Positions 2,951-55,614 of a stretch of 57,305 nt of DNA are shown in pieces (the first letter of the stretch is position 1; each line of letters begins with the position of its first letter). Location of the stretch: positions 1-57,305 of the IMG/VR virus record IMGVR_UViG_3300035182_000325; one strand, given 5' to 3'. The stretch is from a virus. Taxonomy: Duplodnaviria; Caudoviricetes. Under the pieces are notes generated by a model. It searched no databases. It was not told where the DNA came from and saw nothing but the letters and a program-made list of their open reading frames with translations. The translations under genes were made by a program, and so were the position numbers.

Positions 2951-3468
2951 TACTTATTGTCCACTACGATAAAGTGGAATTCGTTTTCGTGTCGAGTCCT
3001 TGGAAGCCAAGTTAGAATATCTCCATCTGGCCAATCCTTAAATAGTGGATTGGCCCTTGCCATGTTAAACCAGAAGTCATCTGCCCCAGCTTCAATTCGC
3101 TGGAGAGCTAATTTCTTAGGAGAGTTCTCCCAATACATTTCTGGGAATATGTGGTCTGCGTGTCGCATGAAGTTAATGCTGACTACGCCGATATGACCAA
3201 CTACCATAGCCATTTCACTAGCAGAGTCTGGACAACGTATTTCTACAGTTGATCCAAGTTTCCCAATACGAGCACATTCTCTAAGAAACATCTTTGGGTC
3301 TTTAACATGCTCGATACAGTGGCTGGAGTAAATCATATCAGCAAAATCGTTCTCTACTGGCCAAGGAGCATAGTCCAAGTTGTGGACTATATTAGCAGTA
3401 GGACAGATATCTAAATTTATCCAGTCTTCTTTCCGATTGCGAATGCCTCCTCCGATTTCAAGCTTCAT
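2950..3468 (-). CDS. Class I SAM-dependent methyltransferase
   Basis: KLEIGGG motif I, WINLDI, DMIYSSHCIEHV, FLRECARI. Confidence 0.85.
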   Translation of the reverse strand: MKLEIGGGIRNRKEDWINLDICPTANIVHNLDYAPWPVENDFADMIYSSHCIEHVKDPKMFLRECARIGKLGSTVEIRCPDSASEMAMVVGHIGVVSINFMRHADHIFPEMYWENSPKKLALQRIEAGADDFWFNMARANPLFKDWPDGDILTWLPRTRHENEFHFIVVDNK

Positions 3469-4526
3469 TAAATAAATTCCTTATGTATTCTTGGGACGAG
3501 TATAGAGTCTTCAATAAATTGGTTAGTCCCAAAGTGCCTACAGAATGAAGGGCAATCTTCACTAACAATAAATCGCGTACCTAAATGCTTCTTCCATATC
3601 TTCGTAAAGGTGTCTGTTTCTAAATCACCTATTGCAAAGTTCAGGTTACCCTTATGGTGACAGCAGGTATACACCATTCCATCTGCACTTATTGCAGATT
3701 CAAAGTAGATACCATGACAGTTCTTAGTGCGTCCTGGTTCTCCGTTAGCAATTGCTTTGTACTTGACTTCTGAGCAAGTGACCCTGGAATCAATTGCCTT
3801 AGCTTTAGCAATGAGACCGATAACAGTATCCGTGTCTGATTCCCATTGTTTTCCATGTGTGTCATGTAATGGACGATATTGAATGTAATCAACCGGAACA
3901 TCCTTCCAAAGATTCGGAAAAGTTTCTATCTCCTTCCAGGACTCAAAATGAGTTAAGAACCCTACCCCTACGGTAACCTCTAAATTCTCATCTCGTTTCC
4001 GATTCGCAGCCTTAGTTATATTTTCTAAGACCTTAGCAAAGTGTTGAGGTTTACCGTGTTGGTCTCTGTAACCCTCAACAGTAGAAGCATCGACAGAGAA
4101 GCGTACCCATTCAAAATGATGTATCAATTTTGATACGTCAATTACACCATGAGTAATAAGAGCTTGCTTAAGCCCTGCATAGCTTGCGAACTCTACAATT
4201 TCTTGGAGTCCTTTATGTTGTGTTGGGTCTCCTCCTCCAGTCCAAGTAATGGCTTGAACTCCCAAATGTTTTAGTTCTGAGATTAGATTCTTAACTCCAT
4301 GAACTGAGTTCTCTAGTCTTTCTGAAGGGGAAGCACCATCTGCAAATAAAGTAGCATTACTCCACTTTCGATCTAAGTACCCAGCACACCAAGGACAGGC
4401 TGAAGCACATAGGTTAGTGAGGTCTATCTCCACTAAGATCGGAGGATACTCAGTACTGCCCAGTATATAATCGGTGAGTATCGGAAGATGAGCCAGAATC
4501 TTATGTTGTTTGAATGGGCCGTTCAT
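3468..4526 (-). CDS. Radical SAM enzyme with SPASM/twitch C-terminal domain
   Basis: CASACPWC (CxxxCxxC), WTGGGDP, RFSVDA, and C-terminal CHG...ISADGMVYTCC...IGDL...CPSFC. Confidence 0.9.
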   Translation of the reverse strand: MNGPFKQHKILAHLPILTDYILGSTEYPPILVEIDLTNLCASACPWCAGYLDRKWSNATLFADGASPSERLENSVHGVKNLISELKHLGVQAITWTGGGDPTQHKGLQEIVEFASYAGLKQALITHGVIDVSKLIHHFEWVRFSVDASTVEGYRDQHGKPQHFAKVLENITKAANRKRDENLEVTVGVGFLTHFESWKEIETFPNLWKDVPVDYIQYRPLHDTHGKQWESDTDTVIGLIAKAKAIDSRVTCSEVKYKAIANGEPGRTKNCHGIYFESAISADGMVYTCCHHKGNLNFAIGDLETDTFTKIWKKHLGTRFIVSEDCPSFCRHFGTNQFIEDSILVPRIHKEFI

Positions 4527-26439: not shown

Positions 26440-27693
26440 CTAGATCAGACTGACCATTGCCTCAGCAATCTTGTCACCTTCTTCATCACTCAGTTCAGCA
26501 TCATCGTTGTCGATGAAGCTACCATAGGTGAATGCTTCAGATTTTGGAGGAGCCTTAGCAGGCATGGCTTGAAGTGACATAATGATCGCTTCTACAGGCT
26601 GAGTGCGAACATTCTGTCCATCGAATTCCAGGACATAATTATCAGCTTTCGGATACAATTCCGTATCAGCAAAAGCCTTAGGACATTGACCCTTCTCAAC
26701 GAGACTGTTAATACGTTCTCGGAGACCTTGACGCTTCTGATCCTGAAGATGATTAGCCATTGCAGACATAACCAACTGATCCTGGGTAGGACCTTTTTGT
26801 TCTTGTTTTACAGCACCCAATTCCGCAGCCGTAAATGGCTTGCCAGTATCAGGATTGATGGTCTTGGTAAGTGCTGCTAACTGGGTTTGAGTAAAGCTAC
26901 TCATAACGATAGGCTCCGTTCTAAAAGGTGTCGATTCTGGACCATCATCATCTGACTCTTTCTTGCTCATCAGTTTCAACTGATTGAGTGCAACAGTCAG
27001 ATTCGAAACTAAACTTGCCGCAGTTGTTGAAGCAGGCAAATAAATTCCGGCTACTTCTGCAAGTAATCCAGAAAGTTCGGTAAAGCTAACATCAGTTTCA
27101 GGTAGATCGTTTGGATCAGCCTCATACTCTGACATAGCAATGTATACGTCATTTGGATCAGGGAGAACTTCAAAGTTCTTCTGTCCAGGCTCAATTGGAT
27201 GAGTCACTAGAGCAACGTGCATAAGCACATTCTCAAGCATCTCTCCAGTTTCGTCAGTCATTTCATAGGTTGGACGCATGTAGATCGATACGTCTTGGAC
27301 TGAAGAACCTACTTTACTGGCAGGAGAGTCAGTATCGGCAACTGATCCAGGAACCTCAATTTCACCGTAAAGGACTTTCTTACCTTTCTCATTGATCTTG
27401 GTGAACATCTTATCCCAGAATCCAGCGTTCTTACTGGAGTCTTCTAGGAGTCCTCCATCACCTTCAGTAATTTTGGTGAAGGTGGTAATCCCGAAGTCAT
27501 GCTTCCAAGGAGCAGGAACTTTGAGACCCTTGCTTCGCATCTTATCAAAGGTTGCAACTGCTTTATCAATGTCTTCAGCAGTCAACTCTTTGAGTGTCTT
27601 CTTCCCATTTCGGTCGAAGGTACGATACTTACCTTCGGTTACGATTTCTTTGGTGAAGCGAGTTGTAACAGGTTTTTTAGTAGTCTTTGTCAC
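26440..27693 (-). CDS. Capsid maturation protease/scaffold, Mu gpI-like
   Basis: PWKH, AGFW, DVSIY and LMHVALVTHP motifs; acidic helical C-terminal scaffold. Confidence 0.7.
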   Translation of the reverse strand: MTKTTKKPVTTRFTKEIVTEGKYRTFDRNGKKTLKELTAEDIDKAVATFDKMRSKGLKVPAPWKHDFGITTFTKITEGDGGLLEDSSKNAGFWDKMFTKINEKGKKVLYGEIEVPGSVADTDSPASKVGSSVQDVSIYMRPTYEMTDETGEMLENVLMHVALVTHPIEPGQKNFEVLPDPNDVYIAMSEYEADPNDLPETDVSFTELSGLLAEVAGIYLPASTTAASLVSNLTVALNQLKLMSKKESDDDGPESTPFRTEPIVMSSFTQTQLAALTKTINPDTGKPFTAAELGAVKQEQKGPTQDQLVMSAMANHLQDQKRQGLRERINSLVEKGQCPKAFADTELYPKADNYVLEFDGQNVRTQPVEAIIMSLQAMPAKAPPKSEAFTYGSFIDNDDAELSDEEGDKIAEAMVSLI

Positions 27694-27777
27694 TTAAGGG
27701 GTCTCCTATTACGCTCAACTCTAGAGCACGTAATAGGAATGTCAATATTAACCCTATTGCTAAATTGAATATCTTTT

Positions 27778-30234
27778 CTAGATATACGGTTTGTAAATAC
27801 TTGGAGGATCGGTGTAATACCCAGGCGAGTTATCTGGTAGTGTCTGCGTATAGTCTATTTCCATTTGCATAACTGGATCAAGTCCAGCACCTTGAGAGGA
27901 AACATAATTACAAGCATCAGATAGTGTATCTACAATATCATCAGGAACTCCAGGGTGACCAGTCCAAGAGAAGACTTCATCCATACAGGTTTGGAGCCAA
28001 GGAGCATCTTCAGGGAACCAAATCCTACGCTTCTTCATACGATAGATCGCACTAGCAGCATTCTGAATCTTATCCTTACTCTTCTTGTGATCCATGATTG
28101 GAACACCTCTAGAAGCAAGAATCTGAGCAGGACCAATCCCTAATCCGTTAGCTTCGACTAGCACATATTTAGGTTTGAAGGTTTTATTAATCCGAATGAC
28201 TTGCTCAATCAGATAAGGAATCTCTTCTCTGAACCTCATCATGTGAAGCCATACCAACTGATAGTCTGGAGTCAAACCCCATACAGAGATAACAGTATAC
28301 GAAGGACCTTTCTTCTTATTAGTCACTTCGTCAATGGGTCCTTCCATAGTCGATGCTGCTGGATCAACAGTAACGAATACTTCTAAGAAGTCCTCCAACT
28401 TAATGACATACGGACCTAGTTGGAAGTAGTCTCCTCTAGAAGTGTAGAACTTAGCATGTAGAGAGTTGAATCTACTATCAGGAGAGATGTCCCAGTCACC
28501 ATAGAGTAGTTGTTGCTTACGAATCTCATCCAATCGATCGAGACTAGAAGCATATCCCCTTTGATCGATGAACTCATTATCAGCTAGTGTAGAAGGGATA
28601 AAGGGCATGTGAGGGTATCGTCCTACCCATTTAACTCTTTTCTCTCCTACTTCATCGGTGTATATCTCTTTGTGGATACCATATCTAGTTTTGATCCAGT
28701 GGTGTCCAGGTCCTCCAGGATTTCCAGCCATACGGAATCTAAGAGGTAACCCTTCATACATTGAGCATACTTTGCATCCTTTAACGTAGTTAGGTATTTT
28801 TTCTCCAGTATCAGGACATTTCTTTAACCTATGTTTAGGACATACGTTTTTTCTTAATCGAGAAAAGAGATAAGTTGGCGCAGAATCATTTTCAAAGTGA
28901 GAAGCTTCATCAATACCACAATTGGCATTGACAAGACCACACATTGTGATATAGTGTGAACTGTCTTCAACGGTTATATCACAAACATCAAAGGTTCCAG
29001 GCAATGACAAAAGGTATGAAGTGGAAACATCCAGGTGACAAGCGTTGGTTTTCTCGACCAGGATATCCTGATTCGTATATGGGTGGATATACGAAGCTGA
29101 ACAGGCAAGGTTATGTTCTTGAATACCATCCACACATTTCAACGAATGCTGCAAAGATGGTATCACAACATCGTTTAGTTTGGTTGGACGTTCATTCTGT
29201 TCTTCCTGAGGGGTACGATGTTCATCATAAGAACGAAATAAAAACGGATAACCGGATTGATAACTTAGAGTTGAAGACAAAATCGGATCATGGAAAGCAT
29301 CATATAAAGAACAATCCGATCTATCGAGTGTGTACTTTGACTTCAAAGGAAGTGAAAAAAGCACTGAAGGGGCGGACAACTTTGAAAGCGGCTGAACTAC
29401 TCGGAGTACATCATCAAACTTTGAGGAATCACTTTGACCATCTTCTAGATAAGAGAAAAGTACCTTCTTCAGATACTCCTGAGATTCAAAAGATAATTCG
29501 GAAGTACGCGAAAGACCCTGATAAGACCTTTCGAGACCTTCACAAGGATCATGGAATAGTGGCAAGGTTTGCTTGCAAGATTCTAAAGAAGTACTCGATT
29601 CCTTGGTTTTATCGACGGCCTTGGGGAGAGGTTGTGTCAAAAACCTATGATTGACTCCTTGAATCTGAAGTCCGTATCTTGTGACAGCTAGAACACACTC
29701 TTTATTAAGTTTATGTGTTTTAGTTACTCGTTTTGGACCGTTCAAAGTCCAAACCATATCACCAACTTCAATAAGACCAATCTTCTTGTAAGACTTATCA
29801 TCCATTAAAACTGGGGTCTCCGGAACACAACAGAACTGATATTCAGCACCTTGGTATCTAGTTTCAGCTTGATACTCCCCCAGATAGCCAAATTGAATTT
29901 TAGCGGGGTGTCCCGGTGATCCATTTGGCCAAAAGGTAGGAAACGAATAAGTATGGTTTTGACTATCATACTTAGCCGAAGTACCGCTGAACCATTGATG
30001 AGCCTTATCAAGCAGAGCTTTAGGTTGAGTCAATTCAACTAAAGTTCTTCGAAGAATAAGGGCCGCATACCCAGGCACATCAACGTACTGAGTAGCAGCC
30101 ATTAGAAGAACTTCAGACTTACCTCCTCCAGCAGCACCACCAAAGAAGGCTTCCAAGTGAGGAAGTAACAGGAATGCTAATTGAGTGGCATAAGGTTCCG
30201 TTGGAATGTATTCGCGATTCCATTTTATGTGCAT
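27778..30234 (-). CDS. terL: Terminase large subunit containing an intein
   Basis: GGAAGGGKS Walker A; YQGAEYQF|CGIDE Walker B after intein removal; GNPGGPGH; nuclease VDPA, VEANG and DDIVD. Confidence 0.93.
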   Translation of the reverse strand: MHIKWNREYIPTEPYATQLAFLLLPHLEAFFGGAAGGGKSEVLLMAATQYVDVPGYAALILRRTLVELTQPKALLDKAHQWFSGTSAKYDSQNHTYSFPTFWPNGSPGHPAKIQFGYLGEYQAETRYQGAEYQFCCVPETPVLMDDKSYKKIGLIEVGDMVWTLNGPKRVTKTHKLNKECVLAVTRYGLQIQGVNHRFLTQPLPKAVDKTKESSTSLESCKQTLPLFHDPCEGLERSYQGLSRTSELSFESQEYLKKVLFSYLEDGQSDSSKFDDVLRVVQPLSKLSAPSVLFSLPLKSKYTLDRSDCSLYDAFHDPILSSTLSYQSGYPFLFRSYDEHRTPQEEQNERPTKLNDVVIPSLQHSLKCVDGIQEHNLACSASYIHPYTNQDILVEKTNACHLDVSTSYLLSLPGTFDVCDITVEDSSHYITMCGLVNANCGIDEASHFENDSAPTYLFSRLRKNVCPKHRLKKCPDTGEKIPNYVKGCKVCSMYEGLPLRFRMAGNPGGPGHHWIKTRYGIHKEIYTDEVGEKRVKWVGRYPHMPFIPSTLADNEFIDQRGYASSLDRLDEIRKQQLLYGDWDISPDSRFNSLHAKFYTSRGDYFQLGPYVIKLEDFLEVFVTVDPAASTMEGPIDEVTNKKKGPSYTVISVWGLTPDYQLVWLHMMRFREEIPYLIEQVIRINKTFKPKYVLVEANGLGIGPAQILASRGVPIMDHKKSKDKIQNAASAIYRMKKRRIWFPEDAPWLQTCMDEVFSWTGHPGVPDDIVDTLSDACNYVSSQGAGLDPVMQMEIDYTQTLPDNSPGYYTDPPSIYKPYI
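28928..28955 (+). promoter_or_regulatory. Antisense sigma70 promoter inside the intein, driving the nested HNH gene
   Basis: TTGACA (28928-33), 16-nt spacer ending TGn, TATAGT (28950-55). Confidence 0.75.
29004..29654 (+). CDS. HNH homing endonuclease (216 aa) encoded antisense within the intein
   Basis: HRLVW...VHHKNEIKTDNRIDNLEL motif; C-terminal HTH (KAAELLGVHHQTL); AAAGG RBS before ATG 29004. Confidence 0.88.
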   Translation: MTKGMKWKHPGDKRWFSRPGYPDSYMGGYTKLNRQGYVLEYHPHISTNAAKMVSQHRLVWLDVHSVLPEGYDVHHKNEIKTDNRIDNLELKTKSDHGKHHIKNNPIYRVCTLTSKEVKKALKGRTTLKAAELLGVHHQTLRNHFDHLLDKRKVPSSDTPEIQKIIRKYAKDPDKTFRDLHKDHGIVARFACKILKKYSIPWFYRRPWGEVVSKTYD

Positions 30235-30770
30235 TACGCATTCCTAAATTTTAATCTACATGCTTCAGAGATTAGAACTGAATCAGCAGTCTCTACATTG
30301 ATAAGAGGGTGTTTGAACAATCGAGTAGCTAGTTTAACCATCTTGGTCTTATCCTTCCCAGGACTTGAAGCTTCCTTTTTCCACTGGTTAGGAGTAGGAC
30401 ACCAAATAGATTCAATGTTGAAAGCCTTAGCCATTCCTACAACGAATCCATAATACCAATGCATAGACGCTATGGACTTCTTACCATTGAGAGGCATGAA
30501 CACTGGAGCCTCAATCGTAAGGTAAGTCTCAGCAGGGGAATCAAAGACTTCTCGGAGAAGATCAGCCAATTCATCTTCACCCATAGTACGAAGTCTAGTT
30601 CCACCATGCCTACCCCAGAACCAATGTAGCTCTAGAGTAGGCTTCTTGAATGGAGGTTTCTTCTGAATGGAGATTGATCCCTTTTGGCCTAGATCAATCC
30701 CGATGTACCTAAGCATTGGATTCTTTGTTCGCTTCGTATACATCAAAAGCGTTGGACATAATATCTGCAA
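30234..30770 (-). CDS. RuvC-like Holliday junction resolvase (likely start ATG 30716)
   Basis: YIGIDLG, IEAP, TPNQWKK and ADSVLI motifs. Confidence 0.8.
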   Translation of the reverse strand: MQILCPTLLMYTKRTKNPMLRYIGIDLGQKGSISIQKKPPFKKPTLELHWFWGRHGGTRLRTMGEDELADLLREVFDSPAETYLTIEAPVFMPLNGKKSIASMHWYYGFVVGMAKAFNIESIWCPTPNQWKKEASSPGKDKTKMVKLATRLFKHPLINVETADSVLISEACRLKFRNA

Positions 30771-31077
30771 AATTAATTACTTCTACAGCAGCCCTCTCAA
30801 TCATGGGTCTCCTATCACCCATTCTACCCTGAAGCATATAGGTCTTGAGGATTCGTTCCATACCCATTTGTAGAGCAGAAGCGATAACTAGGTCTCTCAT
30901 CGTAAGAGCACCTGTTACACGAAGTACTGTTTCAGGTCCGTTCTCTTTACTAATCTGACGTAAGAGTTCTTGGTCTTCAGGATTCGGCGTAGCTTTAGCC
31001 ATGTAATAGTCCCTATAGAAAAGGAGAAATGGAGCAAGAGTTACAAAAAATAGAGCGTAGGAAGTTAAGCTAATCAA
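30709..31077 (-). CDS. Hypothetical protein (likely start ATG 31002)
   Basis: ORF in operon; LTMRD motif. Confidence 0.5.
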   Translation of the reverse strand: MISLTSYALFFVTLAPFLLFYRDYYMAKATPNPEDQELLRQISKENGPETVLRVTGALTMRDLVIASALQMGMERILKTYMLQGRMGDRRPMIERAAVEVINFADIMSNAFDVYEANKESNA

Positions 31078-31081
31078 TAGC

Positions 31082-31744
31082 CTAAGTTTCTATGTTAGTC
31101 GCTAGAGACGATGGTAAGGAAGGAAACACATTAGACAGAACTCCATTGCTGGTTAATAAATCCTGTTCTTTTTCCTTAGGAGCCTCAGTCTTGATCGTGA
31201 GTAGATCAAGGTCCAGAATCGAGTTTATATCCAAACCCTGCCTACGAGCAAGCTTCAAGGATGCTATCAAATTAGCCCCAACATCCAGTCTAGTCTTAGT
31301 TTCTTCTTCTTCAGAACTAATCTTAGACTCTACCCAATCATCCCCCAGAAGCTGGCTAGTCTTGGACTTCAAGAATAGTTCAGGGTTCTTTTGGGCTAGG
31401 GAGGTTTCCGCCAGAATGCGGGCTTGTGAATACCCCTCTTGTAGATACTTCCACAATTTCATGTGTGGAGTCAGGGTAAACTCTGGATCGTACTTTAGAC
31501 AGTCCTCACGCCCTCTGTACGCCCAGTTGGAGAAGGTTTGGGGTGAAACCCCTACGCACGCTGCAATCGTCCCTAGAGAGCATCCTAGGAACGCTTTGTC
31601 TTGAATGATCCCCACCTTCTTGTGGTTCTTTAGAATCCCCTCCAGAAGGGTTTCCTTAGTCTTATCGTTCAGAGGAACTAGCTCGACTACTGGTTCAGTT
31701 TTTGGTAGCGAGCTGATTCTTCTTAGTATTCTGAGTTGTCGCAT
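31082..31744 (-). CDS. Terminase small subunit (putative)
   Basis: HTH AACVGVSPQTFSNW, helical body, upstream of terL. Confidence 0.6.
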   Translation of the reverse strand: MRQLRILRRISSLPKTEPVVELVPLNDKTKETLLEGILKNHKKVGIIQDKAFLGCSLGTIAACVGVSPQTFSNWAYRGREDCLKYDPEFTLTPHMKLWKYLQEGYSQARILAETSLAQKNPELFLKSKTSQLLGDDWVESKISSEEEETKTRLDVGANLIASLKLARRQGLDINSILDLDLLTIKTEAPKEKEQDLLTSNGVLSNVFPSLPSSLATNIET

Positions 31745-42315: not shown

Positions 42316-43920
42316 TCATTCGATAACATCCTTCATAGTGGTAGTAACGTAACAGAGATGGAACTTTGCTCTTGTCAGGGCTACGTAAGTCAGATTGGTT
42401 TCTTGCTGACGATTGAATTCTGACTTAGCAGCTAGCTTTGGATGAGGTAGTAGCTCAGGTCGATAGATGTAGACCTTGTACCACTCTAGACCTTTTGAGC
42501 GATGGGCGGAAGAGAGGGTAATTACATTCTTCTTGTTCTCGTCAGAGAAGAGGGTGTTGAATTTATTAATCACACATTCAACAGTGGAGCACCCATCGCA
42601 GAAGATACGGACAACGATACATTTGTCTGAGAGTTCTTCTAGTTTCATATCCTTTTCAGGATGAGTTGAACAGAGGAGTTTGGAGGATTCTAATTGCTCG
42701 TATGCTTCGAGGTGCATCAGTAGTTCACTAACTGAATTGGCTTCGAACTTCTCAATCAATCGGATGATACCTTCAGCAAACTTACGTCCTTTAATGATTA
42801 CTGGAACTTTGTGTTTGAGGAGGTTCAAGGCTAGGCGTGTCAATGGAGCATTAGTGCGACATAGAACTGCTGATTCGATACCTCCTCGAAACTCTGATAG
42901 GAGTTGCTCACATAGCTTAATGTCCTTGATTGAGTCAACGATACCTTCGGGGTTGTCTGGATGTGCTCTGAATCCAGGTATGATCTTCTGGACTTCTCGG
43001 GCAATTGCTTTAGCACATCTACGAGTTTCAGTTAGAGCAAAGCCCTGCATTTTTCTGGGGGAGGAGAGCATCCACTCTTCGAGGTTGGGGATTGATGTAG
43101 GATCAGCTCCAGCGAATCCAAAGATGGACTGATTGATATCACCTACAGTACAGAGTCGTCGGCATGAGTGGGTAGCAAGCCACTGTTGAGCCTTGTTCGT
43201 GTCCTGTACTTCATCGATAACTCCGAAGTCTACAATCTCGGGTTGGAGGTTGTGCATTGCAGGAAGCCAGATCATATCGTCAAAATCAATCCAGTCTGTA
43301 CGTTCACAAGATACCTTCAGGACCTCGATAGCTTTGGCTAGTGAAGTATCTGAGCATTCGACCGAATAGAAGGAGCATACTGAGGCTAGGTCCTCAGGTT
43401 CTGCGTGGTACTCACCTGTACCTAAGCAATCTTCAGAACCAGCTAAGCAAGCTTTGCTGATCGATACGATATCGCCAATCTCACGGTACTGGTTAAGTGT
43501 AGCTCGTTTATCTTTAGCGTCAGATACTTTGCCGTACAAGTCTTCGCAAATGTTCTGAGTCTTCCAAGCAGAGACCTTATGTCGTCCAAGGTTCTCATAC
43601 AATGTGGATTTGCCTAGGGAGTGATTGGTCGATGATTGAACTGATTCAGGTAGGCGAGTAGAGAGTTCAGTAGCGATTGCTTTACTGAATGCTGTGAATC
43701 GAGCAGTCTTAGGCTTCTCTGACTGCATAGCTGCGATGATTGGGGATTGTTCTTCTGAGAGCTTCACCCCTTTAGGAGTACCACTGAATCCCCAACAAAT
43801 AGTTGTGGTCTTTCCAGTTCCGGCAAGTGCTCGGATAGAGAGGTGAGATGCTTTGGAACCGGAACTGATCTTACGTAGAAGCTTTGCCATGACAATGACT
43901 TTCGAAACGGTAGAGAACAT
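42316..43920 (-). CDS. SF1 UvrD/Rep-like helicase (start 43920 or 43890)
   Basis: ALAGTGKTT, IDEVQD, VGDINQSIFGF, LCRTNA, HRSKGLEW and YVALTRAK. Confidence 0.9.
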   Translation of the reverse strand: MFSTVSKVIVMAKLLRKISSGSKASHLSIRALAGTGKTTTICWGFSGTPKGVKLSEEQSPIIAAMQSEKPKTARFTAFSKAIATELSTRLPESVQSSTNHSLGKSTLYENLGRHKVSAWKTQNICEDLYGKVSDAKDKRATLNQYREIGDIVSISKACLAGSEDCLGTGEYHAEPEDLASVCSFYSVECSDTSLAKAIEVLKVSCERTDWIDFDDMIWLPAMHNLQPEIVDFGVIDEVQDTNKAQQWLATHSCRRLCTVGDINQSIFGFAGADPTSIPNLEEWMLSSPRKMQGFALTETRRCAKAIAREVQKIIPGFRAHPDNPEGIVDSIKDIKLCEQLLSEFRGGIESAVLCRTNAPLTRLALNLLKHKVPVIIKGRKFAEGIIRLIEKFEANSVSELLMHLEAYEQLESSKLLCSTHPEKDMKLEELSDKCIVVRIFCDGCSTVECVINKFNTLFSDENKKNVITLSSAHRSKGLEWYKVYIYRPELLPHPKLAAKSEFNRQQETNLTYVALTRAKFHLCYVTTTMKDVIE

Positions 43921-43951
43921 TGACAGCCCCGTAAGCTGTCTGACTTGAAGG

Positions 43952-43980
43952 ATTGTACTGATATCGATTGTGGCGGTCAA
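43952..43980 (-). promoter_or_regulatory. sigma70 promoter
   Basis: TTGACC-N17-TACAAT. Confidence 0.7.
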
Positions 43981-54513: not shown

Positions 54514-55614
54514 TTATTCAACGAAGTCTTTAACATCGTCTGGTGAACAAGTCTTGGTAACCTTACCTTGTTTGATCGTAAGGAGGTTTTTCTTCTTGTC
54601 AAACTTGGTGATTTCCCATACCGAAAGCTTCTTCTCACCTTCAGGTTTAATCTTAGCAGATTGACCAATCCAAGTAGAAGGATCGTCTGCGTCAACTTCC
54701 TCTTCTTCCTCTTCATCGTCCTCTACGTCTTCGTATTCAGGTTCTTCTTTCTTGGACTTAGAAGGGGATGCAGTCTTCGTTGTAGCCTTTTTGGTTGCAA
54801 TAGTAGCAGACTTTGAAGAGGACTTTTTTGGTGGCTCCTCTTCCTCTTCCTCTTCTTCATCTTCGTCTTCTTCGTCGTCCTCATCTTCCTCTTCTTCCTC
54901 AGGCTCTGCTTTCTTCACAGTCTTCTTAGCAGCACCCTTCTTAGCTTTTGGAGCCTCTTCTTCTTCATCATCCGAATCGTCATCTTCTTCGGTGTCTTCA
55001 TCTTCTTCCTCATCCTCTTCATCCGAATCTACTTCCTCATCAGATTCAGGATCGTAGGAAGAATTAACACGAACTCCATACTTGACTACACCCTTACTCT
55101 TGCCAGATTTACCTTTGTAGCAATTGACGTAGATAACGCAGTATGGTTTCTCTTCGGAAAGGTCATCGGCCAAGTCACACAACTTGGACATATCCAGTTC
55201 TTCGCTGGTATCGTATCCGAGTTTCTGAAGCATGAAGATAACTTCCTTCAGAGACTTCTCTGTTCTCTCTTCATCGTCAGCATCGAACCAAATATCGGTT
55301 CCTACTGGAGTTCCTTTACCTTTGCCGGATTGAATCACAAAGCGGAATTTAAGAACTTCAGAATCATTGACCTTGACAAACTTAACACTGGTCAAGCGAG
55401 CCTTGGCTGTTTGGCCCGATCCTGGCTTAAGACCTAGAAGCTTGATAACTTCTTCATCCTTAACGAATCCGGCTGGAGCAGTTTCCTTACCAGTCCGTTT
55501 GATGGTCTTGTTGAACTTCGCGTACTTCTTGACCATATCCGATTTGGATACTTCTACCTGCTTGCCCTTAGCTGGAGCAGTCTTCTTAGCAGGTGCTTTC
55601 TTTGGTACAGCCAT
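54514..55614 (-). CDS. Putative ssDNA-binding protein with very long acidic/basic low-complexity region
   Basis: OB-like N-terminal half next to the Sak4-like ATPase; poly-E/D tracts; own promoter and terminator. Confidence 0.55.
   Translation of the reverse strand: MAVPKKAPAKKTAPAKGKQVEVSKSDMVKKYAKFNKTIKRTGKETAPAGFVKDEEVIKLLGLKPGSGQTAKARLTSVKFVKVNDSEVLKFRFVIQSGKGKGTPVGTDIWFDADDEERTEKSLKEVIFMLQKLGYDTSEELDMSKLCDLADDLSEEKPYCVIYVNCYKGKSGKSKGVVKYGVRVNSSYDPESDEEVDSDEEDEEEDEDTEEDDDSDDEEEEAPKAKKGAAKKTVKKAEPEEEEEDEDDEEDEDEEEEEEEEPPKKSSSKSATIATKKATTKTASPSKSKKEEPEYEDVEDDEEEEEEVDADDPSTWIGQSAKIKPEGEKKLSVWEITKFDKKKNLLTIKQGKVTKTCSPDDVKDFVE

What the first reader, a model, noticed from the sequence alone, without database searches (positions are those of the whole stretch)
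28921..29832. Intein whose homing endonuclease is a separate antisense gene fully nested in the intein coding sequence
Seen: the 304-aa TerL intein has splicing blocks only at its ends, and its middle (about 215 aa) is motif-less. The opposite strand of exactly that middle is a 216-aa HNH plus HTH endonuclease (29004..29654). Both frames stay open for 651 nt. The register aligns first codon positions, unlike the third-position register of the shadow ORF I checked (31092..31604). Roughly ten stops would be expected by chance (3/64 per codon), which implies selection on both strands. Established: inteins normally carry the endonuclease in frame. Inference: a two-strand selfish element in which protein splicing hides an independently expressed endonuclease gene. 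I recall alternative-frame endonucleases being noted in some actinobacteriophage inteins, so novelty needs checking.
Basis: partly seen in the sequence, partly recalled or inferred. Interest (0 to 1): 0.9.

Follow-up and report, generated by a model that had tools for sequence, protein, structure and literature searches.

The report
Terminase intein with antisense HNH gene
A phage DNA-packaging gene is interrupted by a self-splicing protein insert (intein) whose DNA-cutting "homing" enzyme is a separate, intact gene read from the opposite strand of the insert's own middle; the layout is real and conserved, but it is an HNH-type variant of an arrangement already described for other nucleases.

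Summary
terL (27778..30234, minus strand) carries a 304-aa intein (28921..29832) at its Walker B motif. An HNH_3 plus HTH gene (29004..29654, plus strand) lies entirely inside it on the opposite strand, with first codon positions facing each other.

In this phage's 40 other ORFs that register has 0.079 stops per codon and a longest open run of 86 codons. Here the run is 234 codons.

Of 24 related IMG/VR loci, 21 show the same antisense HNH in the same register, with both frames stop-free. Between 4 and 17 stops per locus would be expected.

Amino-acid constraint switches strands inside the intein. The ends evolve as intein (Hint fold). The middle evolves as HNH and is only kept stop-free on the terL strand.

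A sigma-70-like promoter (11 of 12 positions, extended -10) and an SD-like AAAGG lie upstream of the HNH start, within the codons of the C-terminal splicing blocks.

Antisense homing endonucleases in contiguous inteins are already in print for LAGLIDADG and VSR-like enzymes. My eight paper searches found no antisense HNH version. This scan has noted the same layout on at least 20 other genomes. Splicing, expression and cleavage are inferred, not shown.

The parts
27778..30234 (-). terL (large terminase) precursor ORF, 818 aa, read through the intein
   Evidence: ORF. PHROG phrog_979 terminase large subunit, E 3.4e-53, in two stretches. TIGR01630 E 1.3e-8, below cut-off.
29833..30234 (-). N-extein (TerL residues 1-134, Walker A to ...AEYQF)
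   Evidence: Aligns with intein-less P0001 and P0002 up to residue 134.
28921..29832 (-). Intein, 304 aa (Cys1 ... Asn304, followed by Cys +1), inserted in Walker B (YQF|CGIDE)
   Evidence: Single 304-aa insertion relative to intein-less homologues. Coordinates. Hint fold.
29635..29832 (-). N-terminal Hint half (intein residues 1-66; blocks A and B with His62)
   Evidence: pLDDT 84-95 over residues 1-60. Invariant C1, T29, L30, G32, V36, H62 and L65. Codon-position diversity 0.44/0.41/0.68, typical of coding on this strand.
29095..29634 (-). Stop-free linker of the intein frame (residues 67-246), which is the reverse complement of the HNH gene body
   Evidence: No Pfam family. pLDDT below 50 for residues 70-111 and 164-245. 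Amino-acid identity 0.21, with the intein's second codon position the most variable (0.46/0.64/0.43).
28921..29094 (-). C-terminal Hint half (residues 247-304; HPY motif, block F DITVEDSSHYIT, block G LVNAN)
   Evidence: Invariant H250, Y252, D285, V288, H293 and Y294. pLDDT 71-93 over residues 271-304.
27778..28920 (-). C-extein (CGIDE... to the stop codon)
   Evidence: Aligns with intein-less homologues from VGIDE onward.
29004..29654 (+). Antisense HNH-HTH homing-endonuclease gene, 216 aa from ATG 29004 (open from 28950)
   Evidence: HNH_3 E 2.7e-14. AlphaFold mean pLDDT 84.7. Best PDB fold match is I-HmuI 1u3e. Homologous antisense ORFs in 21 of 24 related loci.
29169..29294 (+). HNH_3 catalytic core (HNH residues 56-97)
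   Evidence: Pfam stretch 56-97. H74, H75, N83, N87 and H96 are invariant in 20 of 20 sequences.
29358..29429 (+). First helix-turn-helix of the DNA-binding tail (HNH residues 119-142)
   Evidence: HTH_23 E 0.0013, below cut-off, in the window. HTH_23 at E<=0.001 in 11 of 20 family members. Helices modelled at pLDDT above 90.
28928..28955 (+). Sigma-70-like promoter for the HNH gene: TTGACA, 16 nt, TG-n-TATAGT. It is written in the antisense of the codons for HYIT...LVN.
   Evidence: 11 of 12 matches with an extended -10 TG. It is one of 5 sites with >=11/12 on both strands of the window, where shuffles give 1.7. This is a consensus match only.
28990..28994 (+). Shine-Dalgarno-like AAAGG, 9 nt before ATG 29004
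   Evidence: Read from the sequence. It has the same style as other genes here, for example gaaaggttccgtaATG before ORF 3468..4526.

Best explanation
This is a two-strand selfish element in the Walker B codons of terL.

On the minus strand, the late terL mRNA is translated straight through a 304-codon class-1-type intein. Its N-terminal 66 and C-terminal ~58 residues form a Hint domain. The ~180 residues between them are an unstructured, stop-free linker. Protein splicing (Cys1, block B His62, block F Asp285/His293, Asn304, Cys+1) then restores YQF-CGIDE and an active terminase.

On the plus strand, the same DNA encodes an I-HmuI-like HNH-HTH endonuclease. It is expressed from its own promoter and ribosome-binding site, which lie inside the antisense of the intein's block F-G codons. 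The enzyme would nick or cut intein-less terL alleles of co-infecting relatives. Repair from the intein-bearing copy would then spread intein and nuclease together.

Shown here: both ORFs, the Hint and HNH folds (predicted), the conserved register, the stop avoidance and the strand switch of amino-acid constraint. Inferred: splicing, transcription from the predicted promoter, the cleavage target and homing.
For: (1) Anatomy. There is a single 304-aa insertion at Walker B relative to intein-less TerL at 83% and 80% identity. The ends match Hint structures: PI-SceI 1ef0 at E 2.5e-4, with the listed matches down to E 0.2 all inteins or Hint-type autoprocessing domains. A profile of the family hits PI-SceI at 5.6e-6. 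13 of 18 family members hit Pfam Hom_end_hint.

(2) The antisense ORF is a real protein. HNH_3 is found in 20 of 20 family members, with invariant H74/H75/N83/N87/H96. Mean pLDDT is 84.7, against below 50 for most of the intein-frame middle. I-HmuI is the top fold match (E 8.7e-3, prob 0.99) and the top sequence-profile match (E 0.0024).

(3) Conservation. 21 of 24 IMG/VR loci found through intein blocks alone carry the antisense HNH in the same register, with both frames open. In 20 sequences x 131 aligned codons the intein frame has 0 stops, against 86-146 in the four other alternative frames. Every one of 21 sequences has 0 antisense stops where synonymous resampling expects 3.95-16.6, and P(0) is at most 0.017 for each.

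(4) Strand switch of constraint. Codon-position diversity in the intein frame is 0.44/0.41/0.68 in the N-terminal Hint part and 0.37/0.33/0.65 in blocks F-G. In the middle it is 0.46/0.64/0.43. In HNH-frame terms the middle reads 0.47/0.43/0.64.

(5) The middle is dispensable for the fold. L053 and L062 are 179-183-aa mini-inteins of the same family without it.

(6) Expression signals: promoter-like site, 11 of 12 with TG, and an SD-like AAAGG.

(7) Patchy distribution. The closest TerL homologues lack the element. Across 15 loci the Hint ends and the HNH are more alike (0.39 and 0.38) than the exteins (0.26), and their distances co-vary (Spearman 0.44, Mantel P 0.0005).
Against: There is no expression, splicing or cleavage data.

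The window's own intein gets no Pfam Hint hit at E<=0.01. It also departs from textbook motifs: GVNH instead of TxxH in block B, and Ala instead of the penultimate His.

The promoter is a consensus match only. The family-wide test for codon bias towards a promoter gave P 0.003 against an extein codon null but only P 0.087 against a null matched to the intein's own third-position GC content. Most of the promoter likeness therefore follows from the conserved amino acids.

The distances of the HNH and the Hint ends also correlate with extein distance (0.43 and 0.52). Vertical descent within terminase clades is therefore not excluded.

The other runs that hold this phage show the intein-bearing allele only. 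No empty allele was seen at near-identity.
Confidence: 0.8

Rival explanations
1. The antisense HNH is intact but no longer acts as this intein's homing enzyme. It is either a relic in an element that is now inherited vertically, or it has been recruited for another phage function, such as the terminase-associated HNH nucleases that help DNA packaging.
For: HNH genes next to terminase genes with a packaging role are described (abstract of PMC3592412, seen in the listings). Element and extein distances correlate. No empty allele was seen in other samples.
Against: The closest TerL relatives (83% and 80% identity) lack both intein and HNH, so neither is needed for packaging. The enzyme is of the HNH_3 plus HTH, I-HmuI-like homing type. 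Its catalytic residues are invariant in 20 of 20 sequences. The same element sits in terminases that are only 26% identical on average.
Confidence: 0.1
2. terL is a 'fractured gene'. Two separately translated halves, each with half of a split intein, are joined by trans-splicing, and a free-standing nuclease gene lies between them. On this reading the open read-through frame is incidental.
For: Split inteins with a free-standing endonuclease gene between the gene halves are known (Dassa et al. 2009, as cited in the preprint passages; I did not read that paper). The linker has no fold of its own.
Against: The terL frame is stop-free across the nuclease gene in the window and in all 21 loci that carry it, where 4-17 stops each are expected. 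Eleven further homologues in the protein collection are called as single 780-837-aa proteins.
Confidence: 0.03
3. The plus-strand ORF is a chance shadow ORF of the intein, or the insertion is an RNA intron rather than an intein.
For: Shadow ORFs of 150-206 codons do occur in this genome in the two other antisense registers.
Against: The HNH_3 match is E 3e-14. The register used is the most stop-rich one in this genome. Amino-acid constraint lies in the HNH frame. No Rfam intron family matches at E<=1 in 28400..30400. The ends have a Hint fold.
Confidence: 0.01

Closest known systems
Contiguous inteins with an antisense homing-endonuclease ORF. These are the antisense LAGLIDADG of the Synechocystis DnaX and Chloroflexus SpoVR-like inteins (Gorbalenya 1998 and Gogarten et al. 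2002, as cited), and the antisense LAGLIDADG and VSR-like ORFs in actinobacteriophage inteins (bioRxiv 10.1101/2025.01.02.630785; passages read).
   Same: A full-length, stop-free intein ORF whose would-be endonuclease region has no fold of its own. A separate nuclease ORF lies on the opposite strand of that region. The host genes include the terminase large subunit. The distribution suggests the two parts move as a unit.
   Different: The nuclease here is HNH_3 plus HTH (I-HmuI-like). That preprint lists HNH only as an in-frame type. This family lies at the Walker B site of terminases from uncultured phages of very different G+C content. Its ORF also overlaps conserved Hint segments and lies downstream of a promoter-like site inside the antisense of the block F-G codons. 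I could not see the preprint's supplementary table of all 784 inteins.
ShiLan-type hidden HNH (PMC11855218; abstract and sections 3.6 and 4 read)
   Same: An HNH endonuclease ORF hidden inside an insertion that stays stop-free in the host gene's frame. Gene callers miss it.
   Different: The ShiLan HNH is on the same strand, out of frame, and its insertion has no splicing domain. Here the gene is antisense and is flanked by a Hint domain. A same-strand, +2-frame HNH inside a second terL intein does occur in loci L052 and L060.
Canonical bifunctional inteins (PI-SceI type) and in-frame HNH inteins
   Same: Hint fold. The nuclease-coding DNA sits between blocks B and F.
   Different: In those inteins the nuclease is a domain of the intein polypeptide. 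Here the in-frame translation of that DNA is an unconstrained linker, and the nuclease is a separate protein made from the other strand.
I-HmuI, the HNH homing endonuclease of a group I intron in Bacillus phage SPO1 (PDB 1u3e; the phage and intron context are recalled, not from a call)
   Same: N-terminal HNH core followed by a helical/HTH DNA-binding tail. It is the top fold match and the top profile match.
   Different: The similarity is weak (E 8.7e-3 and 0.0024). I-HmuI is intron-encoded. The window's protein has further HTH repeats.
Fractured genes with split inteins and a free-standing endonuclease (Dassa et al. 2009, cited; not read)
   Same: A nuclease gene placed between the two halves of an intein.
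   Different: There the host gene is physically split into two ORFs. Here the frame is continuous in all 22 sequences examined.

Membership tests
Intein (class 1, Hint fold) | In-frame insertion absent from close homologues of the host protein | tested here: met
   A 304-aa insertion after residue 134 relative to P0001 and P0002.
Intein (class 1, Hint fold) | Nucleophile at position 1, C-terminal Asn (or Gln), and Cys/Ser/Thr at +1 | tested here: met
   Cys135, Asn438 and Cys439. The family shows C1 and N or Q followed by C, S or T.
Intein (class 1, Hint fold) | Block B TxxH and a penultimate His in block G | tested here: inconclusive
   His62 is invariant, but the window reads GVNH. The penultimate residue is Ala (K, S, R, T or A in relatives). 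That such departures occur in active inteins is recalled, not tested.
Intein (class 1, Hint fold) | Hint fold | tested here: met
   Foldseek: PI-SceI at E 2.5e-4, followed by BIL, DnaB, gp41-1 and Prp8 inteins. Profile against PDB: 5.6e-6. Pfam on the window's own intein gives no hit.
Intein (class 1, Hint fold) | Protein splicing | not testable with these tools
   Needs expression of the precursor.
HNH homing endonuclease (Pfam HNH_3, I-HmuI-like) | HNH_3 domain above Pfam's cut-off, with catalytic His/Asn/His | tested here: met
   52.8-53 bits against a cut-off of 24.8. H74/H75/N83/N87/H96 invariant in 20 of 20.
HNH homing endonuclease (Pfam HNH_3, I-HmuI-like) | Attached sequence-reading DNA-binding module | tested here: met
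   HTH families at E<=0.001 in up to 11 of 20 members. In the window HTH_23 is E 0.0013, below cut-off. Helical repeats are modelled at pLDDT above 90.
HNH homing endonuclease (Pfam HNH_3, I-HmuI-like) | Cuts the element-free allele and drives gene conversion | not testable with these tools
   Only indirect evidence: the closest TerL relatives lack the element, and the element is shared by terminases with 26% mean identity.
Non-canonical inteins with an antisense endonuclease ORF | Contiguous intein ORF plus a nuclease ORF on the opposite strand inside it | tested here: met
Non-canonical inteins with an antisense endonuclease ORF | Nuclease of a described type (LAGLIDADG or VSR-like) | tested here: not met
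   The nuclease is HNH_3. The preprint lists HNH as in-frame only.
Fractured gene / split intein | Host gene split into two ORFs | tested here: not met
   There is one 818-codon ORF. No stops occur in the window or in the 21 loci with the HNH.
ShiLan-type hidden HNH insertion | Same-strand, out-of-frame HNH with no splicing domain | tested here: not met
   The ORF is antisense and is flanked by Hint blocks.

The most novel reading that the evidence does not exclude
The element is a self-contained bidirectional cassette whose control signals are co-encoded with the splicing chemistry. The conserved block F (HYI) and block G ([VI]N) codons read, on the other strand, as the -10 (TATAGT/TATAAT) and -35 (TTGAC/TTGAT) of the nuclease promoter. 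Host RNA polymerase could therefore make the nuclease early, before late terL transcription. The intein could then not lose its splicing motifs without also silencing its mobility gene. Reciprocal double constraint also holds at both ends of the overlap, for example HPY in the intein frame against Y-R/M-G-G in the HNH frame.
Probability: 0.3. Interest if true: 0.65.

Novelty: new variant of a known kind. Interest (0 to 1): 0.5.

Why it matters
This family shows that a free-standing type of homing endonuclease can live inside an intein without becoming part of its polypeptide. It does so in an essential gene, across phages with G+C contents from about 42% to 65%.

It is a clean natural example of long antisense dual coding (651 nt here). 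One strand is selected for amino-acid sequence and the other only for the absence of stops, and the boundary between the two regimes can be read directly from codon-position diversity.

The family bears on the 'splicing first, nuclease later' view of intein origins. It may represent a possible route between contiguous and split inteins.

It also matters for annotation. Gene callers report only the terL strand. The nuclease had just 11 relatives at E<=1e-5 among 5.8 billion protein clusters, while 21 of 24 related loci encode it.

Tried and rejected
Nucleotide search of the phage collection with terL found nothing. Protein searches there found only distant terminases and HNH domains.

The search for related loci with the whole TerL found no pattern match in IMG/VR. 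With the HNH alone it found only distant HNH cores (L001-L038), which I did not analyse further.

The DNA of the 11 intein-bearing protein homologues therefore could not be read. Their antisense strand is untested, and only their open terL frame is known.

I therefore have no host assignment and no wider count.

No RNA holder was listed among the public runs.

Laying four DNA runs gave identical short contigs in X2 and X4, including one across the N-terminal intein junction. No joint skipped the intein, and cover was patchy.

The test for codon bias towards the antisense promoter is not robust: P 0.003 with the extein null and 0.087 with a null matched to intein GC3. I do not claim selection on the promoter.

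Rfam gave only a chance-level match (FdoG1 thermometer, 16.9 bits against a gathering score of 50).

I could not open the dnaX preprint 10.64898/2026.09.14.751524 and saw only its listing. Gorbalenya 1998, Gogarten 2002 and Dassa 2009 are known to me only through citations in the passages. Supplemental Table 1 of the actinobacteriophage intein preprint, which gives HEN types for 784 inteins, could hold an antisense HNH that the main text does not mention.

The statement that an antisense HNH intein is not in print rests on the searches only.
Full report
WHAT IS THERE

The window is a complete 57,305-bp virus record with direct terminal repeats. All long ORFs but three lie on the minus strand.

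terL is the 818-codon ORF 27778..30234 on the minus strand. It matches terminase large-subunit families in two separated stretches (phrog_979, E 3.4e-53).

A search of 5.8 billion protein clusters returned many homologues of 475-553 aa without any insertion. The closest are P0001 (83% identity) and P0002 (80%). It also returned eleven homologues of 780-837 aa that align along the whole query.

The alignment places one 304-residue insertion after residue 134, between ...AEYQF and CGIDE. This is inside the Walker B motif. The intein-less proteins read EYQY|VGIDE there.

On the plus strand an ORF runs from 28950 (open) or 29004 (ATG) to 29654. It hits Pfam HNH_3 at E 3e-14, above the curated cut-off, plus weaker HTH families and fourteen HNH-endonuclease PHROGs. 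The two frames face each other first codon position to first codon position.

IS IT MORE THAN CHANCE?

Yes. In the 40 other ORFs of this genome this antisense register is the most stop-rich of the three (0.0786 stops per codon, 1102 of 14025). Its longest open run is 86 codons, against 234 in terL.

I kept the HNH protein fixed and redrew synonymous codons from the phage's own usage. This gives a mean of 16.6 antisense stops, and none of 1000 draws was stop-free.

WHAT THE TWO FRAMES ARE

An AlphaFold model of the intein frame was built from an 18-sequence alignment. It is confident at both ends (pLDDT about 84-95 for residues 1-60 and 71-93 for 271-304). It is below 50 for residues 70-111 and 164-245.

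The confident parts match solved inteins and other Hint domains. PI-SceI is first (E 2.5e-4), followed by BIL, DnaB, gp41-1 and Prp8 inteins and hedgehog. A sequence profile of the family hits PI-SceI at 5.6e-6.

In Pfam, 13 of 18 family members hit Hom_end_hint and 12 hit Vint. No other kind of family appears. The window's own intein gets no hit at E<=0.01.

The expected catalytic positions are present: Cys1, block B His62, block F Asp285 and His293, Asn304 and Cys+1. However, block B reads GVNH rather than TxxH, and the penultimate residue is Ala.

The model of the plus-strand protein has a mean pLDDT of 84.7. Its best match among solved structures is the HNH homing endonuclease I-HmuI, both by fold (E 8.7e-3, probability 0.99) and by profile (E 0.0024).

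No Rfam intron family matches the region at E<=1.

RELATIVES

I therefore searched IMG/VR with an alignment of the intein parts only. The patterns came from blocks B and F, so the search did not require an open middle.

All 24 loci returned have the intein at the terminase Walker B site. Their terminases are otherwise very different.

tblastn with the window's HNH protein found a homologue on the strand opposite the intein, inside it, in 21 of the 24 loci (E 5e-35 to 2e-9). In all 21 the register is the same as in the window. Both the host ORF (728-1459 codons) and the HNH frame (227-333 codons) are open. L040, L041 and L045 are near-identical copies of one sequence.

The three loci without the antisense HNH are shorter inteins of the same family:
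- L053 and L062: 179-183 aa.
- L060: about 240 aa by my reading.
This shows that the middle is not needed for the Hint part.

All 20 members of the HNH alignment (the window plus 19 loci) hit HNH_3 at E<=0.001. H74, H75, N83, N87 and H96 are invariant.

WHICH STRAND IS UNDER SELECTION, AND WHERE?

I compared 20 sequences (L041 and L045 left out as duplicates) over 131 fully aligned codons:
- The intein frame has no stop, while the four other alternative frames have 86-146.
- Mean pairwise amino-acid identity is 0.405 in the HNH frame and 0.210 in the intein frame. The latter is no better than the non-coding frames (0.21-0.32).
- Nucleotide diversity at HNH codon positions 1, 2 and 3 is 0.47, 0.43 and 0.64.

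Seen from the intein frame, the pattern at positions 1, 2 and 3 changes along the element:
- N-terminal Hint part: 0.44/0.41/0.68.
- Blocks F-G: 0.37/0.33/0.65.
- Middle: 0.46/0.64/0.43, the mirror image.

Purifying selection on protein sequence therefore changes strand inside the intein. Across the middle the terL strand is selected only to stay open. Each of the 21 sequences has no antisense stop where 3.95-16.6 are expected.

The overlap is not confined to the unconstrained part. The first ~30 HNH codons lie over intein residues 247-277, including the invariant H250 and Y252 of the HPY motif. There the HNH N-terminus is the poorly modelled partner. The last seven HNH codons lie over block B.

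EXPRESSION SIGNALS

On the plus strand, TTGACA, 16 nt, then TG-n-TATAGT lies at 28928..28955, 49 nt before the ATG. It is one of five sites with at least 11 of 12 matches on both strands of the genome, where shuffles give 1.7 on average. It is the only one of the five preceded by the extended -10 TG.

It is the reverse complement of the codons for HYIT...LVN in blocks F and G. An AAAGG lies 9 nt before the ATG, in the style of this phage's other genes.

In relatives the same positions again read TTGAC/TTGAT, about 16 nt, then TATAGT/TATAAT/TGTAGT. Much of this follows from the conserved amino acids. Observed promoter likeness exceeds synonymous resampling at P 0.003 with extein codon usage, but only at P 0.087 when third-position G+C is matched to the intein's own N-terminal part.

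The promoter is therefore a reasonable inference for this window. It is not a demonstrated family trait.

MOBILITY

The nearest TerL relatives lack the element. Across 15 loci the Hint ends (0.39) and the HNH (0.38) are on average more alike than the exteins (0.26). Hint and HNH distances co-vary (Spearman 0.44, Mantel P 0.0005). Both also co-vary with extein distance (0.52 and 0.43).

This fits an element that moves as a unit mainly among related terminases. It does not exclude long vertical descent with losses.

Public runs gave no RNA holder and no empty allele at near-identity.

COMPARISON WITH WHAT IS KNOWN

A note from earlier agents of this scan pointed me to antisense LAGLIDADG inteins. 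I checked this lead in bioRxiv 10.1101/2025.01.02.630785 (passages read).

That preprint states that antisense LAGLIDADG endonucleases in full inteins were reported for Synechocystis DnaX and a Chloroflexus protein, citing Gorbalenya 1998 and Gogarten et al. 2002, which I did not read. [quoted passage not shown] It lists HNH only as an in-frame type.

The ShiLan paper (PMC11855218; abstract and sections 3.6 and 4 read) describes a same-strand, out-of-frame HNH in an insertion without splicing domains.

Eight full-text searches found no antisense HNH intein. The layout is therefore known. The nuclease type, the insertion site family and the overlap with the splicing blocks are the new elements.

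The same layout has already been noted by this scan on at least 20 other genomes, and the promoter has been noted on this window.

VERDICT

I class this as a new variant of a known kind and set interest at 0.5. The mechanism rests on strong comparative evidence for dual coding. Splicing, expression and homing rest on inference.

Noticed in passing
L052:2525-3103 and L060:3583-4170: [quoted passage not shown] This is a ShiLan-like 'hidden' HNH, but it lies inside an intein. The host frame stays open across it.
   Followed up: partly
L046:1193-5569: One terminase ORF of 1459 codons appears to carry several inteins. One lies in Walker A (GGARGGGK|A...HN|T). The Walker B intein carries the antisense HNH. 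At least two more lie downstream.
   Followed up: no
proteins P0008, P0017, P0025, P0063, P0066, P0067, P0070, P0074 (relatives of window 27778..30234): The same TerL family hosts insertions of 336-403 aa at three sites: after residues 38 (Walker A), 134 (Walker B) and 207 of the intein-less P0001. Four of these proteins carry a LAGLIDADG Pfam domain (PF14528). The gene is therefore a multi-site intein sink.
   Followed up: partly
L054, L056, L057 (intein C-termini): These inteins end in Gln instead of Asn (...VNAQ|S, ...IQAQ|T, ...ISSQ|T). They still carry the antisense HNH, with both frames open.
   Followed up: no
window 15897 (+), 51431 (-), 7396 (-), 2688 (-): These are the only other sites in the genome with at least 11 of 12 matches to the sigma-70 consensus. 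One lies on the otherwise almost gene-free plus strand.
   Followed up: no
window 54514..55614, 42316..43980 and 31082..31744 (antisense): Long stop-free antisense runs of 206, 155 and 172 codons lie in the other two antisense registers. They look like ordinary shadow ORFs. I did not search them against families.
   Followed up: no
intein versus extein third-position G+C in L039-L061: Mean GC3 is 0.70 in the C-exteins, 0.60 in the first 59 intein codons and 0.51 in the last 16 intein codons. The element is AT-richer than its high-G+C hosts, most of all at the putative promoter.
   Followed up: partly
window 27000..31000 in runs X2, X3, X4: Short contigs identical to this phage occur in sediment and microbial-mat metagenomes of other studies. 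They include pieces inside the intein and across its N-terminal junction.
   Followed up: partly
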